From assembly GCF_009914755.1 (NCBI RefSeq), contig NC_060941.1: a DNA stretch of 64,000 bases; one strand, written 5' to 3'. Positions 3,623-62,408 of this stretch are shown in pieces (the first letter of the stretch is position 1; the number at the start of each line of letters is the position of its first letter). The position numbers were made by a program, and so were the translations under genes. The notes beneath the pieces were generated by a model. The model was not told where the DNA came from and searched no databases. It worked only from the letters and a program-made list of their open reading frames with translations. The DNA is from the human T2T-CHM13v2.0 reference genome, Homo sapiens.

Positions 3623-3707
3623 GAAGCAGGAGCTGGCCAACAGCTCGGATGCGACCCTCCCAGACCGGCCGCTCTCCCCTCCTCTCACGGCACCTCCCAC
3701 CATGAAG
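3623..3707 (+). CDS. RAP1GAP2: RAP1GAP2 coding exon (85 nt): (K)KQELANSSDATLPDRPLSPPLTAPPTMK
   Basis: Acceptor cttttggcctcttcacAG, donor AAG|gtaaga. The peptide matches the RAP1GAP2 N-terminal region as recalled. Ends in phase 0, compatible with the next exon. Confidence 0.96.
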
Positions 3708-11624: not shown

Positions 11625-14530
<2,906 letters not shown>

Positions 14531-19455: not shown

Positions 19456-20790
19456 TGTAGATTTGATTCCTAGGGTTGCTGTAACAAATTACTGTGAACT
19501 TGATGGGTTGAAATAAAAGGATAAAAGGAATTTCTTATCTTTTTTTTTTCTTTTTTGAGACAGAGTCTCACTCTGTCACCCAGGCTGAAGTGCAGTGGCG
19601 TGATCTTGGCTCACTGCACCTTTCTGCCTCCTGGGTTCAAGCAATTCTCCTGCCTCAGCCTCCCAAGTAGCTTGGGATTACAGGCACCGGCCACCACACC
19701 CGGCTAACTTTTTGTATTTTTAGTAGAGACGGTGTTTTGCCATGTTGGTCAGGCTGGTCTTGAACTCCTGATCTCAGGTGATCCACCCGCCTCAGCCCCC
19801 CAAAGTCCTGGGATTACAGGCATGAGCTACCATGACCGGCCAGGAATTTATTTTCTCACAACTCTAGAGGCCAGAAGTCTGGAATTAAGGTGTCAGCAGG
19901 GCCGTTAAAGTGTCCGCAGGGCCTTTAAGGTGTCTGCAGGGTCGTTAAGGTGTCAGCAGGGTCGTTAAGGTGTCAGCAGGGCCGTTATGTGTCCTCAGGG
20001 CCGTTAAGGTGTCAGCAGGGCCGTTAAGGTGTCCGCAGGGCCGTTATGTGTCCACAGGGCCGTTAAGGTGTCAGCAGGACCGTTAAGGTGTCCTTAAGGT
20101 GTCCGCAGGGCCATGTTCCCGCCAGAGGCTCGAGGGGAAGCTCCTTGCCTGCCTCTTCCAGCGCCTGGTGGCTCCAGGCCGGGGACTGCACAGCTCTGCT
20201 CTCTTCCTCCGTCTTCTTCACATGTCTCCCTCCTCTTCTCCCTGGGGGTCTCTCCTCTGTGTGTCTCTTTTAAGGACACTTGTCATTGGATTTAGAGCCC
20301 ACCTGGGTAATCGGGATGATCTCATCTCAAACTCCTTCATATCTTAAAATTATATCTGTTATCTCAGTCTGTTCCAACTGTTACAACAAAATACCTTAGA
20401 CTGGGTAATTTACAAACAATAGCCATTTATTTCTCACCATTCTGGAGGCTGGGAAATCCCAGATCAAGGCTCCAAGAGACCCACTGTCTGATGAAGGCCC
20501 ACGTTCTGCGTCTAAGATGACACCTTCTTGCAGTGTCCTCACAGGGAGGAAGGCGGAAGGACAGAAGGGATTCGCTAGTCCCTCAGGCCTTCTATGAGGA
20601 CGTTAATCCCGTTCCCGAGGGTGGAACCTTTATTACCTGGTCACCTCCCTAGGCCTTGCCTTCTAATTCCATCACCTTGGGAGGGACATGTACATTCAGA
20701 CTGCAGCATGGGTAAAGACCCTTTTTCCGAATAAGGTTACACACTCAGGTTCCTGGATACAGACATATCTTTTTGGGGGCCACCATTACG
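19456..20790. mobile_element. MLT1C/D-like LTR with nested Alu (19541-19841), VNTR and second MaLR LTR (20360-20708)
   Basis: Outer LTR text resumes after each insert. Alu TSD aggaattt(c/a)tt(a/t)tct; outer end taaagaccctttttccgaataagg...tttttgggggccacc. Confidence 0.8.
19885..20113. repeat. 20-bp minisatellite (ttaaggtgtcagcagggccg), about 11.5 copies
   Basis: Counted directly; includes two 19-bp variants and one truncated unit. Confidence 0.95.
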
Positions 20791-29636: not shown

Positions 29637-30859
29637 TGGGTGAACGTGACTGTGAATGTTGTGGGTAGTTCTTTGTTGTATCAAGTGTTTTGGATGTCTG
29701 TTTGGGGGTGGATATTGTGGGACGCCACGTTGGTGTGAATGTATCTGCAGCTGAGTGATTCCCCCAGCCAGGACAGCGGGGCCAGGAAGGACAGCCCATT
29801 GTCCCTACCCTAACCTCGTTAGGGCCTCGTTTGCCCCAGCACCCCCTTCTTCAGCCCCAGCTGGCAAAAGGGGGTGGGGCAATCGTGTTATTTAACATAC
29901 AGCTTATAGGGAAGAGAGCTGTTGAGCATTAAAGCCCCCATGCGGTTGTTCATGTATAATTAGGCTGTGGGAGCTTGGGGACTGACTGACTGTTAGAATC
30001 ACTCGGGACCGAAGCACTTATTTAAGTAATCATTAACTGGAAGATGGGAAAGGAACAGAACATGCAATTTGCAGATGTCCCCTCTTCTTGCAGGTCAGCC
30101 TGAAATGAAACTCCCAGCAAGTGAGGAGGCTGGCGCCTTGCTCAGCCTTCCTCTTCCCTCTGGTGAGGGGAAGGGCAGGTTAGGGGATGCTGGGGCTGAG
30201 TTGGGGTTATGGAGATGGCATCTCTCAGGCACATCAGAAGCACAAGCCCCCCAAAATTTCCAGCTTCTCATGACTCCTTCGCTGACACCGCCCTTTACCC
30301 AGCAGCACAAAGATATATAATGATATATTCAGTTCTCAGTCCGGCGCATTTGATCAACACCTGCTCTGCACTAGGCCAGGAACGGCTCCAGCGAAGTCCC
30401 AGTAATCCGTTGTCCCAGGTGGAGGAGGATGTTAACAGGAAGAGCCCAGATAATTGAAATTCTGGTTTAGCTCATCTGTAAATCTGCTTTTGCTGCTTCC
30501 CAGCAGTGCTGATGTGGTCATGGGGGATGGGACGCTGTGTTTTCCTCCTTCGCGCTGAAGCAGAGGGTGCCTGGCTGGGGGTCTCTAGGCAGGAGCGTGT
30601 GGGAGCGGCCAAGTTCTGGAGCAGTTAAGGCTGTTAGTGGTGACGGGGCACCTCATGGTCTCTCTGGGGGACAACTGCAGCCCCAGTGGAGGAGGAGGGA
30701 GACTGGCCAACTGCATATCCCATAACAAGTGTGGGACCCGGAGCTCAGGGAGAGGAGAGGGAGGAAGGGTGTTCGGTATGTGGTGTGTGTCTTGGCATAT
30801 GATGCCTCTTGCTTTGGAAATTCTGTGAGGTTCCATCCTTTTTATTTATTATTTATTAT

Positions 30860-31166
30860 ATCGCGCCACTGCACTCCAGCCTGGGTGACAGAGTGAGACT
30901 CCATCTCAAAAAAAAAAAAAAAAAAAAGAGGAGCTCGAGACCAGCCTGACCAACATGGTGAAACCCCGTCTCTACTAAAAATACAAAAATTAGCCAGGAG
31001 TGGTGGCGGGCGCCTGTAATCCCAGCTACTCAGGAGGCTGAGGCACGAGAATCACTTGAACCCGGGGGAGGCAGAGGTTGCAGTGAGCCAAGATTGCACC
31101 ACTGCACTCCAGCCTGGCAGCAGAGCAAGACTCCATCTCAAAAAAAAAAAAAAAAAAAAAAAAAAA
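30860..31166 (+). mobile_element. Two 5'-truncated Alu pieces in tandem
   Basis: 3' stub plus poly-A (30860-30927), then an Alu starting at ggagctcgagaccagcc (30929-31166). Confidence 0.88.
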
Positions 31167-31508
31167 GGAGAGCAGGGACCACGGGCAGGGTATGGGTTCC
31201 ATGTCTGGTCTGTGATGTGTTCCCTCTGGATGGGCAAACCCAGAAGCTTCTTCAGCCCCTTTCCTCCTCCAGGCACAGGTCGAGGCTGGGATTGCGGGAG
31301 GAGGGGAATGGCACTGGGATCTGGAGTGCCTGGTTCTCAACACTTGCTTGGCAGAGGGGAGGAGGCCCAGTGTCCCCGCGTACAGGGCAGCATGGCTGCG
31401 GTTTCCCTCCTCCATGAGCCAGCCAGCCAGACAGTGGGCAGGAGAGGGCGGGAAGAGAGAAGGGCGAGTGGAAGGAAATGGAGTCGTGTGGGCGGGTGAG
31501 CAAGTTGG

Positions 31509-33900: not shown

Positions 33901-34431
33901 TCAATAAATGTCACCCCCCCGCCCCCATCCTGAAATTAATTCTATAAATCCAGTACACGTAGAGCCGGCAGACATTTGTCGTTCGATCACTGTTGCAATG
34001 TCAAGCACGTTCACATTTGTGGCCTCATTTGATCTTCGGAAGTGCCGGAGGATGGGGATCATTACTCCAGTGTCACAAAGGAGGCAAGTGAGGCGCGAGG
34101 CCTCACAGCTGGCCGGTGACCGGGCTGGGATTCGGAGGCTGGTCTGTCTGACGCTCAGTCCCATGCTCTCTTCACCGGATTGCAGCTGCTGGAGAAAAAC
34201 CACAAGCAAGGAAGGAAACGCGGCCGATCTGGCGGGTTTGCTCCAGCCGGGGTATTTTATAAATGAATGATCACTGCTGGGCATCCTTAATAGTGGGGTT
34301 TCTGGTTTCGAGAGAAGAGAGGTCTCATTTAGAGGCTCAGGAGGCTAATTTGACGGTGGGGAGATGTGCGCAGACCGCCATCTCCTCTCCCTGTCTCCAC
34401 CTCCAGTGGCCGGTGGCCAGTTTTGCCTCTT

Positions 34432-37030: not shown

Positions 37031-37713
<683 letters not shown>

Positions 37714-38119
37714 CGCACTTACTCTTTTAGCTCTTTCTTCACACCTCTTAGGTGGTGTGAGGTGCGTGGGAATGCCTCGAAAGATGCAGGCACCGGTCTC
37801 TCTTTTACTTGTTTTTATTTTTCTTGCACAGAGAGGGCTTCCCAGTTCAGAGAAGGGAAAATTGAGGCCCCCACCAAGGGGAGCCTGCTGGAGTCTCCAA
37901 ACACACAAGACCCGGGGTCTCCTTCAGGCCCAACACTGTGGCTGGTTTCCTGTGTCCCAGTCGTGCCTTCCGTCCGGCCACGCGGGCCAGCAGTGTTGAG
38001 AACTCACTCAGGGCAGGGATGGAGTGGGGAGGCTTCTCACCCCTTTACCTTCCTAGGCCCCAGTGGGCATCCATTCATCACCTGCTGGCGTGGGGCCTCT
38101 CCCTTGGAAGGGACCCCCT

Positions 38120-38380
38120 TGCCCTTATGACGTAAGACGTGTGGCACCTCCATCAGCCCTGGGTTCCCCAGAAAAACGCCCGCGGCAGAGGACAGGTCAA
38201 AGGTCAGCGCTAGTCAGCGTGGACTAACAGCTTCGGGCGGACACCCGAGTCCTGTAGTTCCTTGTTTGATCTGAAGGAAGTTGTCCAGCGTCAGCAGCAG
38301 CCGCCGCCGTGGTGGTAGCAGCTGCAGTGGAGCTAAAGGCAGCAGGGCCCCGACTCTCGGGACCCAGGCCCTGGCGGGAG
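38120..38380 (+). promoter_or_regulatory. Candidate intronic alternative promoter/enhancer and 5' UTR
   Basis: Non-repeat, CpG-retaining segment with TGACGTAA (38128-38135), perfect DR1 AGGTCAAAGGTCA (38194-38206), GGGCGG (~38235), AGGAAGT (38275-38281) and a GCAGCAGCCGCCGCCG leader-like run. Confidence 0.55.
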
Positions 38381-38404
38381 ATGGATTTCTTAAAGTACCT
38401 TTTC
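38381..38404 (+). CDS. RAP1GAP2: Candidate alternative first coding exon segment MDFLKYLF
   Basis: GAG-ATG-G Kozak context, first ATG after the promoter-like motifs, 8 codons then gtgagt at 38405. Phase 0 matches exon 56097. Not verified with transcript data. Confidence 0.5.
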
Positions 38405-39445
38405 GTGAGTGTCCCTGGGCTGTGGAGGGATGCCCGTCCAGGCCCTGCTGCCTGGAGGGGGTGGGGAACAGAGCCTCTCCTGTTGTCACCTGGCTGGGAG
38501 CCCCGAGTGGCTGTTTGCCTGCCACGGGTCATGGAAGCCACCCTTCACTCAGGGGAAGGAGGAACCGAGACCAGGGACAGAGGGGCCTCTGGGTGGGGGA
38601 TGTGGAGGGCAGGGGACAGACTCAGCACCCGGGCCTTTCCTCCCTGGCTTGGAGATTCGAGGTGGGTCCTGGCAGAGGGCTGGAGAGAACTCACTTCTGT
38701 GTTCCTCTGGGAAGGCTTCTCGGCTCCCTGCCGGGGCCCGAGGGAACCCACTGCCAGCCAAAGGCTGTGCATAGGTGGGAGTTGCCATGGCGAGAGGGGG
38801 AGGGACTCCTCAGCTGGGCTTCCGCCTGGCCTGGACGCTTGGAGCTGGCCAGGCTGCGGGTCCCGCCCTCTCTTCTTTGGGCTGTGGTTCTGGGGACTCT
38901 GTGTCCTGTCACGGAGCCTCAGAGTGTGGTTAGTGTGAGGCCCAGCGAGGAGAGTGTGAGCCGTGGTCCTCTGCTGCCAAGCCACACTGTCCCTGCAGGC
39001 TCTGCAGACGCCCCTTCCAGCTTTGGCAGGCCCTTTGTGCCCGCTCCTGGTGAACATGGGGGGCCCACGCGGACTTGGCCAGGTGGGGACTGTGAGGCTC
39101 TTCGTCTTTCCCCTGCCTGCTGCCAGCCCGGGACTGGCTGTTTTCTTGCCTTTCTTCTCCCTCCTTGGCTGTGTCATCTTTTTCTCTATGGGAGTCAAGG
39201 GTGACAATTCAGGGACGAGTGTGAGGAGTGACAGGACACTTGTTTGTGGGGTTGGACCAAGGAGTTCCCCAATCTCAGGCTGCACCGCCATGGGCTCCAG
39301 GATGCTGTGGGGGGACCGGGGACCTTGTGACCAGCCAGAAACGGCCCAACCTCTCTGGACCCTGGCAGGGTGTGGGTAGTGGTATAGTGGAGAGTTTTAA
39401 GCTGCGAACTGATCTCACCTGATTGATGTTTCAAAAGACCGCGTG

Positions 39446-45002: not shown

Positions 45003-45432
<430 letters not shown>

Positions 45433-46764
45433 ACACTTAACAGAGAGCCATTGCAGGCTCCTGGCCCCAGTGACATAGTGAAATGGCACCTCTGAAACGC
45501 TCCAGCAGCAAAGGAGCCGTGAGCATCAGGAGTTGGTGGAAAAAGGAGACCAGAGAAGGGAAAGAGGAGCAAGCAGGTGGCTTGGCGGGGGTGGTGGGGG
45601 GAGACTTGGTTGGAACAGGACCTGATTCTGGAGGACGGTTCATTATTGGGAGCACCCACTGGGCATAGGGTTGGCCATCCAGGGTGAGGGGTGCAGTCTG
45701 TGGTCAGAGCACAGACAGCTGTTAATAGCAGTAACACTGGCCCGTCCAGCCCTGACTCTAGCCATCCCAAGAAGCCCGCCCTGGCCACTCCCAGGCCAAG
45801 ACTCAGCCCTCACCGCTTGCTTCGTTGCATCTTGCTTAGCAGAATATTTAGTCATTCATCTGGCAAATGTTTATTGAGCATCTACTGTGTGCTAGGCAGT
45901 TCTATTAATAGCACAGGGATATGGCAAGGATCACAGCAAACGAAGAGCTCTGCCCTCGAGGACCTTCTGTTCTGCAGCCAGCCTGGTGGCCGGCTGGTTC
46001 TCATCCTGCTTGCCCTGTGGATGGGGACTTCTGGACCGGTAGCGGAGTCGGGCAGTGTGGCGTGCTCGGTGGTCAGACGACATGGGACACATCCCATCCC
46101 GCTCCCAGGGCGTGCCCTGTTTCCCCAGCTTTCCAGAAACGGGTTTAGAGAACTCTCCAGAAATCCTTTTCCTTGGTCATGTCTTCCCTCTTCATCCGGA
46201 TGAGAAACTCACTCTGACCTGTTTGCTTCTCCCCCCAGCACTTTCTGGCCCGCATCTCCCCCCGATTTTCCTGGGACCCACGTAGGTGCAAAACACCTGC
46301 TCCTCCATCCTTGTCTTCTGGTAATGTTTTTAGTTTGCTGTTGATGTAGCCTTGCCCCCTCCGTGTGTCCTGGATTGGGGTGGGCGGGAATAACGAGGCG
46401 ATTGCAAGGACTCATTGAGCGACCTGTGTGCCAGGCTCTGTACACGCTGGCCCGTGTGGTCCTGCCACAGCTCTGTGAGTTAGCGGTCATGTTTTCAGCC
46501 CCATGCAAAGGCGCAAGCACTCAGACAGCGTGGTTCTGTGAACATGAGTGTGTGGTGCCTCCCAGGAGCAGGGATTTTAGCGAGGCTGCTGACACATAAA
46601 CACACCCCCACCTCCAGAAGCAGAGGAGAGGAGCCCAGGGCCAGGGCAGGTAGCTCAGCAAGGACCCAGCATGCTGCAGGTGGGGCCAGTGAGAGTCACT
46701 TCTCCAGCGAGGGTCAGAGAGGAGAGAGGCAAGAGTGTTGCAGGGGCGAGGGTCTCATGAGCTG

Positions 46765-56096: not shown

Positions 56097-56132
56097 TCGT
56101 CGGAGTTCTTTGAGATGCTGGAGAAAATGCAG
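56097..56132 (+). CDS. RAP1GAP2: RAP1GAP2 coding exon (36 nt): SSEFFEMLEKMQ, first half of GoLoco-like motif
   Basis: Long polypyrimidine tract ending tttcAG, donor CAG|gtgagt. Homologous to RAP1GAP ...FEMIEKMQ. Confidence 0.96.
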
Positions 56133-61009: not shown

Positions 61010-61054
61010 GGGATCAAGCTTGAAGAGCAGAAGCCGGGACCCCAGAAGAACAAG
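61010..61054 (+). CDS. RAP1GAP2: RAP1GAP2 coding exon (45 nt): GIKLEEQKPGPQKNK, cassette exon with second half of GoLoco-like motif
   Basis: Acceptor ttccttgtttctatAG, weak donor AAG|gtgggc, phase 0/0. Its 15 aa match the recalled length difference between the long and short RAP1GAP2 isoforms. Confidence 0.94.
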
Positions 61055-61769: not shown

Positions 61770-61802
61770 GACGACTATATCCCATACCCCAGCATCGACG
61801 AG
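61770..61802 (+). CDS. RAP1GAP2: RAP1GAP2 coding exon (33 nt): DDYIPYPSIDE
   Basis: Branch-point-like GACTAAC at 61736-61742, acceptor gtcttgcAG, donor GAG|gtaggt. Homologous to RAP1GAP EDYIPYPSVHE. Confidence 0.96.
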
Positions 61803-62195: not shown

Positions 62196-62408
62196 GTTGT
62201 GGAGAAGGGAGGCCCGTACCCTCAGGTCATCCTGCCACAGTTTGGGGGCTATTGGATCGAGGACCCGGAGAACGTGGGCACCCCAACATCGCTGGGGAGC
62301 AGCATCTGTGAGGAGGAGGAAGAGGACAACCTCAGCCCCAACACATTTGGCTACAAGCTCGAGTGCAAGGGTGAAGCCAGGGCCTACCGGAGGCACTTCC
62401 TGGGGAAG
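62196..62408 (+). CDS. RAP1GAP2: RAP1GAP2 coding exon (213 nt): VVEKGGPYPQVILPQFGGYWIEDPENVG...YKLECKGEARAYRRHFLGK
   Basis: Acceptor ctctgccttcAG, donor AAG|gtgagg. Contains the Rap1GAP-family signatures LPQFGGYWIE and YRxHFLGK. Confidence 0.98.

What the first reader, a model, noticed from the sequence alone, without database searches (positions are those of the whole stretch)
38120..38410. Hidden intronic promoter and in-frame alternative first exon (MDFLKYLF) for RAP1GAP2
Seen: deep in the 52-kb intron is a repeat-free, CpG-retaining block. It carries a CRE-like TGACGTAA, a perfect DR1, a GC box, an ETS core and a GCAGCAGCCGCCGCCG leader with no ATG between ~38140 and 38380. Then come GAG-ATG-G at 38381, exactly 8 codons (ATG GAT TTC TTA AAG TAC CTT TTC) and a GTGAGT donor at 38405. 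The phase is 0, matching exon 56097, so splicing gives MDFLKYLF-SSEFFEMLEKMQ... Established (recalled): the canonical RAP1GAP2 N-terminus carries the Ser7/Ser9 phospho-switch for 14-3-3 binding. Inference: this is an independently regulated isoform that replaces the first ~55 residues, escapes that control, and places a hydrophobic helix directly before the GoLoco-like segment. I cannot tell whether it is already annotated.
Basis: partly seen in the sequence, partly recalled or inferred. Interest (0 to 1): 0.85.

Follow-up and report, generated by a model that had tools for sequence, protein, structure and literature searches.

The report
Annotated alternative first exon of RAP1GAP2

Summary
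These are the CRE-like TGACGTAA, a perfect DR1, a GC box, an ETS core, the CAG/CCG leader, ATG 38381, eight codons (MDFLKYLF), a GTGAGT donor at 38405, and phase 0 into exon 56097.

It is not hidden. RefSeq uses this first exon in 2 of 16 RAP1GAP2 transcripts. NM_001437988.1 is curated, with exon 38287-38404 and a 668-aa product. XM_054315553.1 is a model, with exon 38277-38404 and a 683-aa product. Both have coding sequence 38381-38404 spliced to 56097.

The isoform replaces exactly 55 codons, including the RKRSVS stretch with Ser7 and Ser9. A review describes that stretch as the 14-3-3 switch. Losing the switch is not special to this exon: 5 of the 6 annotated N-termini that enter exon 56097 lack it.

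The "GoLoco-like" segment is a decayed relic. It scores 15.1 bits, or 7.1 bits in the curated transcript. Twelve genuine motifs score 19.9-52.3 bits.

I could not test conservation in other species, junction reads or CAGE with these tools.

Verdict: real, ordinary and already known.

The parts
38128..38135 (+). CRE-like octamer TGACGTAA, 159 bases upstream of the curated transcript start
   Evidence: one copy in the window, 0.30 expected
38194..38206 (+). Perfect DR1 (AGGTCA A AGGTCA), 93 bases upstream of the start. This is a nuclear-receptor type site (HNF4/RXR/COUP-TF/PPAR class, from established knowledge). Binding was not tested.
38235..38240 (+). GC box GGGCGG, 52 bases upstream of the start
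38276..38281 (+). ETS core GGAAGT, 11 bases upstream of the curated start. It overlaps the model's start at 38277.
38277..38404 (+). Alternative first exon of RAP1GAP2. It is 38277-38404 in XM_054315553.1 and 38287-38404 in NM_001437988.1. The 5' UTR is 94-104 nt, GC 0.69-0.71, with no upstream ATG.
38294..38309 (+). CAG/CCG-rich leader, lying inside the annotated 5' UTR
38381..38404 (+). Coding part of the exon: ATG plus 7 codons, MDFLKYLF. Kozak context has G at -3 and G at +4.
38405..38410 (+). Splice donor GTGAGT
56097..56132 (+). Shared second exon, 36 nt, phase 0, SSEFFEMLEKMQ. It is the first half of the GoLoco relic. It matches the paralogue RAP1GAP in 12-residue length, EKMQ ending and a GT donor immediately after.
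61010..61054 (+). Cassette exon of 15 codons, GIKLEEQKPGPQKNK. It is the decayed second half of the GoLoco relic. XM_054315553.1 includes it and NM_001437988.1 skips it.
61770..61802 (+). Next constitutive exon, DDYIPYPSIDE
37521..38038 (.). RefSeq functional element 'H3K4me1 hESC enhancer', flanking the promoter block on the left
38556..39072 (.). RefSeq functional element 'H3K4me1 hESC enhancer', flanking the block on the right

Best explanation
This is one of at least eight annotated alternative transcription starts of human RAP1GAP2. A small, TATA-less, CpG-retaining promoter at about 38120-38290 starts transcription at 38277-38287.

The first AUG of the transcript, at 38381, opens an 8-codon coding stretch. 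That stretch is spliced in phase 0 to the shared exon at 56097.

The product is a RapGAP of 668 aa, or 683 aa with the 15-codon cassette. The first 55 residues of the select isoform are replaced by MDFLKYLF. These 55 residues include the RKRSVS site (Ser7/Ser9) and the 28 residues of exon 3623-3707.

Shown here: the sequence features, the annotation, the phase, and the loss of the motif.

Inferred: the isoform cannot bind 14-3-3 through phospho-Ser9, so it would not be restrained by that switch. Also inferred: the promoter answers to factors of the CREB, nuclear-receptor DR1, Sp and ETS classes.
For: - RefSeq uses exactly this exon, ATG and donor in 2 of 16 RAP1GAP2 transcripts, one of them curated (BestRefSeq).
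- The sequence features are confirmed.
- It is the only GTRAGT donor of 25 in the intron that has an open phase-0 ATG in a strong Kozak context.
- CpG retention is in the top 0.5% of 300-base windows, in a stretch free of listed repeats.
- RefSeq H3K4me1 elements lie on both sides, with a gap over the block.
- Exactly 55 codons are replaced, and Ser7 and Ser9 sit in the select first coding exon.
- The 14-3-3 switch is described in passages of PMC11139668.
- The downstream exon 63880-63983 matches Rap-GAP_dimer PF21022 at 34.6 bits against a cut-off of 27.
- The block and the peptide-plus-donor pattern are unique in the genome.
Against: - I saw no transcript, junction, CAGE or chromatin data. 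Support for expression rests on RefSeq's status labels.
- Conservation in other species could not be tested. The one protein search returned 3 fish fragments without N-termini, and 61 candidates were left out by the tool.
- No paper found mentions the exon or the peptide.
- The individual motifs are each compatible with chance, and the ATG-free leader is ordinary.
- The functional consequence (14-3-3 insensitivity) is untested.
Confidence: 0.9

Rival explanations
1. The exon is real but biologically minor. It would be a weak, possibly lineage-restricted start site whose spliced product is rare and has no selected function. Annotation records it only because deep transcript data catch rare starts.
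For: RAP1GAP2 has many annotated starts: 16 transcripts in at least 8 first-exon groups. The coding contribution is only 8 codons. No paper found mentions it. Conservation is untested. The CpG block is short: o/e falls to 0.44 over 517 bases.
Against: RefSeq curators gave it an NM accession. CpG retention suggests long-standing germline hypomethylation (inference). The start has a strong Kozak context, a consensus donor and a clean leader.
Confidence: 0.2
2. The block is chiefly an intronic enhancer for the upstream RAP1GAP2 promoters. The spliced transcript from it would be a by-product of enhancer transcription.
For: RefSeq lists H3K4me1 hESC 'enhancer' elements directly on both sides. The block carries a cluster of factor-type motifs: CRE-like, DR1, GC box and ETS.
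Against: The annotated elements flank the block rather than cover it. Transcripts from it carry a complete open reading frame into the gene. Enhancer and promoter roles do not exclude each other.
Confidence: 0.15
3. It is a chance co-occurrence of motifs, an ATG and a GT in an intron, with no exon.
For: Each motif alone is within chance. 815 of 3028 GT dinucleotides in the intron have some open in-frame ATG upstream.
Against: The exon is annotated in two RefSeq transcripts with these exact boundaries. It is the only strong-donor, strong-Kozak case in the intron.
Confidence: 0.02

Closest known systems
RefSeq NM_001437988.1 and XM_054315553.1 (RAP1GAP2 transcript variants)
   Same: Identical first exon, ATG 38381, donor after 38404 and junction to 56097. 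This is the finding itself.
   Different: Nothing structural.
The other annotated alternative first exons of RAP1GAP2 (first exons at chr17:2644826, 2665930/2666387, 2685579, 2698075 and 2742041)
   Same: Each gives its own N-terminus and joins the common body in phase 0 at exon 56097. Four of these five also lack the RKRSVS Ser7/Ser9 motif.
   Different: All five pass through exon 3623-3707. The exon studied here lies downstream of it, so it alone also drops those 28 residues. Its own contribution, 8 residues, is about the shortest: variant P2 starts with only 7 residues in its own coding piece.
GoLoco motif of the paralogue RAP1GAP
   Same: The exon architecture matches. Both have a 12-residue exon ending in EKMQ with a GT donor, followed by an exon carrying the second half.
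   Different: RAP1GAP's two exons score 34.7 bits on a model of 12 human GoLoco motifs. RAP1GAP2 scores 15.1 bits with exon 61010 and 7.1 bits without it. RAP1GAP2 has K where the motif's final R stands. From recall, not from any call: the classical short RAP1GAP isoform starts inside this motif.

Membership tests
Annotated alternative first exon / alternative promoter of a protein-coding gene | Exon boundaries and coding start coincide with a public transcript record | tested here: met
   NM_001437988.1 (38287-38404) and XM_054315553.1 (38277-38404), coding sequence 38381-38404 then 56097-56132
Annotated alternative first exon / alternative promoter of a protein-coding gene | First AUG of the transcript, open frame, consensus GT donor and AG acceptor, and a phase compatible with the next exon | tested here: met
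   No ATG in the 94-104 nt leader. GTGAGT donor, polypyrimidine/AG acceptor, and 24 nt plus 36 nt both in phase 0.
Annotated alternative first exon / alternative promoter of a protein-coding gene | Direct transcript evidence (junction reads, CAGE, cDNA) | not testable with these tools
The only support is the RefSeq label BestRefSeq.
Annotated alternative first exon / alternative promoter of a protein-coding gene | Conservation of the ATG, frame and donor in other mammals | tested here: inconclusive
   The protein search with the 71-aa exon gave 3 fish fragments that lack N-termini, and 61 candidates were left out by the tool. No vertebrate genomes were on hand. There is no second copy in the human genome.
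GoLoco motif (Pfam PF02188) | Match to the family model over its cut-off | tested here: not met
   The own-genome search with PF02188 gave 16 matches at E up to 10, of 80 candidates scored. None was in RAP1GAP2, while the second-half exon of RAP1GAP scored 26.2 bits. That search reads exon by exon, so a split motif is penalised. On a model of 12 human motifs, spliced RAP1GAP2 scores 15.1 or 7.1 bits, against 19.9-52.3 in leave-one-out scoring and 34.7 for RAP1GAP.
GoLoco motif (Pfam PF02188) | Acidic-Gln-Arg triad at the end of the motif (the importance of the Arg is recalled) | tested here: not met
   Exon 61010 reads GIKLEEQK..., with Lys in place of Arg. The exon is absent from NM_001437988.1.
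14-3-3-regulated N-terminus of Rap1GAP2 | RKRSVS with Ser7 and Ser9 | tested here: not met
   Present only in the select N-terminus, 1 of 6. It is absent from the MDFLKYLF isoform. The role of the site is taken from passages of PMC11139668.
CpG-island promoter | Length, GC and observed/expected CpG thresholds (recalled: at least 200 bp, GC at least 0.5 and o/e at least 0.6; stricter: at least 500 bp, 0.55 and 0.65) | tested here: inconclusive
   The 291-bp block has GC 0.59 and o/e 0.71, which meets the lenient thresholds. The 517-bp block has o/e 0.44, which fails the strict thresholds.

The most novel reading that the evidence does not exclude
The internal promoter is a tissue-restricted switch driven by a nuclear receptor (DR1), CREB and ETS factors. 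It would make a RapGAP that 14-3-3 cannot restrain, so the GAP is constitutively active. Its new hydrophobic 8-residue cap on the GoLoco relic would change partner or membrane binding. Cells could then set Rap1 tone by promoter choice rather than by phosphorylation. No paper found in the searches made describes this.
Probability: 0.1. Interest if true: 0.35.

Novelty: already known. Interest (0 to 1): 0.08.

Why it matters
As a discovery it does not matter, because the exon and its coding start are in the public annotation.

It does show that a sequence-only reading can recover a true internal promoter and a micro first exon to the base.

A modest open question remains. Only 1 of 6 annotated N-termini of RAP1GAP2 carries the Ser7/Ser9 14-3-3 switch, and the switch has been studied only in the select form. 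Which tissues use the switch-less forms, and whether those forms are unrestrained Rap1 GAPs, appears unstudied in the papers I could search.

Tried and rejected
**Conservation.**
- One protein search with the largest in-window exon (71 aa) returned 3 fish fragments that start downstream of the N-terminus.
- The tool's length window (0.55-1.75 times the query) cannot reach 668-730-aa proteins from any single exon.
- I did not pad the query with intron sequence to shift that window.

**Paralogous copy.** There is no second copy of the block. The back-translated peptide-plus-GT pattern occurs nowhere else in the genome. The exon therefore has no counterpart in RAP1GAP.

**Amphipathic helix continuing into the GoLoco relic.**
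- I expected the hydrophobic residues to stay in register across the junction.
- They do not. The joined 20-mer has a moment of 0.17, and 2718 of 5000 shuffles reach it.
- Shuffling only the 8 new residues gives a mean of 0.29, above the observed value.

**ATG-free leader as a signal.** Rejected: 29 of 820 gaps are as long.

**Rfam.** There were only two SRP-type matches, far from the site.

**PDB by sequence.** Nothing was found for the 71-aa exon. Pfam also found nothing for that exon.

**Papers.**
- Searches for Rap1GAP2 with isoform (82 papers, 25 listed), alternative promoter (2), GoLoco (0) and first exon (11) found nothing about this exon. So did searches for the peptide (0), the names Rap1GAP2a/b/c (4, all fish paralogue names) and the accessions (0).
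- I read passages only, in find mode, of PMC11139668, PMC4045674, PMC3382407, PMC11576107, 10.1101/766832, PMC13212118 and PMC13682646.
- PMC13212118 names RAP1GAP2 among genes with aberrant splicing in blood but does not give the event.
- The two primary papers (Schultess 2005, Hoffmeister 2008) are not held. I know them only from reference lists and recall.

Full report
**Observation.** I read 37900-38600 and checked each element by script.
- On the + strand are TGACGTAA at 38128, a perfect DR1 AGGTCAAAGGTCA at 38194, GGGCGG at 38235, GGAAGT at 38276 and GCAGCAGCCGCCGCCG at 38294.
- The only ATGs between 38019 and 38430 are at 38127 and 38381.
- The ATG at 38381 has G at -3 and G at +4. It is followed by seven codons (MDFLKYLF) and GTGAGT at 38405.
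- Exon 56097-56132 is 36 nt, sits behind a pyrimidine-rich AG acceptor and translates to SSEFFEMLEKMQ, so the junction is in phase 0.

**More than chance?** The picture is mixed.
- The DR1 (with up to one mismatch) and the octamer each occur once in 64 kb, against 0.25 and 0.30 expected. 22 and 29 of 100 shuffles give at least one.
- The 254-nt ATG-free gap is ordinary: 29 of 820 gaps are as long.
- CpG retention stands out. 38120-38410 holds 18 CpG at o/e 0.71, against window medians of 7 and 0.33. Only 0.5% of 300-base windows have as many.
- Among the 1429 of 2548 windows that are less than 10% masked, the block ranks second.
- The block lies in a 1746-base stretch without listed repeats.
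- Of 25 GTRAGT sites in the 52-kb intron, 5 have an open in-frame ATG in phase 0. Only this one also has a strong Kozak context.
- Sequence alone makes the exon a good candidate but does not prove it.

**What it is.** The RefSeq table for chr17 lists 16 RAP1GAP2 transcripts, and two of them start here.
- NM_001437988.1 (BestRefSeq) has first exon 38287-38404, 22 exons, skips exon 61010-61054 and encodes 668 aa.
- XM_054315553.1 (Gnomon) has first exon 38277-38404, includes exon 61010-61054 and encodes 683 aa.
- Both code from 38381 to 38404 and continue at 56097.
- The exon, its start codon, its donor and its junction are therefore public annotation.
- Relative to the curated start, the CRE-like site is at -159, the DR1 at -93, the GC box at -52 and the ETS core at -11.
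- No TATA is present in 37900-38600.
- RefSeq also lists 'H3K4me1 hESC enhancer' elements at 37521-38038 and 38556-39072, on both sides of the block with a gap over it. I read that as compatible with a nucleosome-poor promoter flanked by marked nucleosomes, which is an inference.
- Gene identity is backed by a tool as well as by the annotation. Exon 63880-63983 matches Rap-GAP_dimer (PF21022) at 34.6 bits against a cut-off of 27.

**What the isoform loses.**
- I fetched the select transcript's upstream coding exons from the same genome and translated them piece by piece.
- The pieces are 44, 36 and 85 nt, which total 165 nt, or exactly 55 codons.
- The first piece reads MFGRKRSVSFGGFG, with Ser at positions 7 and 9.
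- Passages of the review PMC11139668 state three things. Phospho-Ser9 binds 14-3-3. That binding goes with reduced Rap1GAP2 function. PKA/PKG phosphorylation of Ser7 releases 14-3-3.
- That the isoform escapes the switch follows from the missing motif but was not tested.
- The loss is not peculiar to this exon. I fetched the other upstream first exons and examined the six annotated N-termini that enter exon 56097. Only the select one has the RKRSVS motif (1 of 6).
- This exon is distinctive in being the only one downstream of exon 3623-3707. It alone also drops that exon's 28 residues.

**The 'GoLoco-like segment'.**
- A search of the whole genome with Pfam PF02188 gave 16 matches at E up to 10, of 80 candidates scored.
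- Fourteen were over the cut-off. They lie in GPSM1, GPSM2, GPSM3, RGS12, RGS14 and PCP2, plus a half-motif exon of the paralogue RAP1GAP at 26.2 bits.
- None was in RAP1GAP2. That search reads exon by exon, and the candidate motif here is split between exons.
- I therefore built a model from the 12 full motifs, dropping L017-L020 as half, partial or below cut-off. I then scored spliced pieces inside a script.
- Leave-one-out scores of the genuine motifs are 19.9-52.3 bits.
- RAP1GAP's two exons score 34.7 bits. RAP1GAP2 exon 56097 plus exon 61010 scores 15.1 bits. Exon 56097 plus exon 61770, as in the curated transcript, scores 7.1 bits.
- In both genes the 12-residue exon ends in EKMQ and is followed directly by a GT donor.
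- In RAP1GAP2 the next exon reads GIKLEEQK..., where RAP1GAP reads GSRMDEQR.... The motif's final Arg is Lys in RAP1GAP2.
- I conclude that it is a homologous but decayed relic, and that the curated MDFLKYLF transcript keeps only its first half.
- The eight new residues are hydrophobic (mean 0.38 on the Eisenberg scale). The joined 20-mer shows no raised helical moment: 0.17, reached by 2718 of 5000 shuffles. A helix was not otherwise tested.

**Relatives elsewhere.**
- The block is unique in the genome. The back-translated peptide-plus-GT pattern hits only this site, and the control pattern hits none. So the paralogue has no matching exon.
- For other species, the only route open here was the protein word search. 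The longest exon, 71 aa, can only reach proteins of 39-124 aa.
- That search returned 3 fish fragments beginning downstream of the N-terminus, and 61 candidates were left out by the tool.
- Conservation of the ATG, frame and donor is therefore untested.

**Literature.**
- Seven searches found nothing on this exon, its peptide, a GoLoco motif in Rap1GAP2 or the accessions.
- The passages read in six further papers gave no isoform information.
- The primary Rap1GAP2 papers are not held.

**Verdict.**
- Confidence in the structural explanation is 0.9. I put the inferred 14-3-3 insensitivity at about even odds of mattering in cells.
- The main rival is that the start is minor and without selected function (0.2).
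- Interest is low (0.08), and the novelty rating is 'already known'.

Noticed in passing
window 61010-61054 (and 56097-56132): The 15-codon cassette exon that distinguishes the 730/683-aa forms from the 715/668-aa forms carries the decayed second half of a GoLoco relic. Alternative splicing therefore removes or keeps that half: 15.1 bits with it against 7.1 bits without it, on a model of 12 human motifs.
   Followed up: partly
chr17:2644826-2886558, i.e. mostly outside the window; in-window first exon at 38277: RAP1GAP2 has at least eight annotated first-exon groups among 16 RefSeq transcripts. Only 1 of the 6 N-termini that enter exon 56097 carries the Ser7/Ser9 motif.
   Followed up: yes
window 33950-34250: This is the richest CpG block among unmasked 300-base windows (19 CpG, o/e 0.79). 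It lies between two listed repeats. By eye it resembles a MIR-type SINE (recalled consensus, not tested), which would be unusual for so old a repeat.
   Followed up: no
window 38381-38938: Read past the donor, the ATG at 38381 stays open for 185 codons into the intron (stop at 38936). This is probably a GC-rich chance frame. An unspliced transcript would encode it.
   Followed up: no
window 11643-11791 and 19555-19704, minus strand: Two Rfam Metazoa_SRP matches score just over the gathering score (72.1 and 72.5 against 70). I take them to be Alu elements rather than SRP RNA genes (inference).
   Followed up: no
window 62220-62305 minus strand against 62196-62408 plus strand: By the annotation supplied, an exon of the antisense lncRNA RAP1GAP2-AS1 lies wholly inside a coding exon of RAP1GAP2 on the opposite strand.
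   Followed up: no
window 29836-31329 and 45388-46429: Two further pairs of adjacent RefSeq 'H3K4me1 hESC enhancer' elements lie in the same intron.
   Followed up: no
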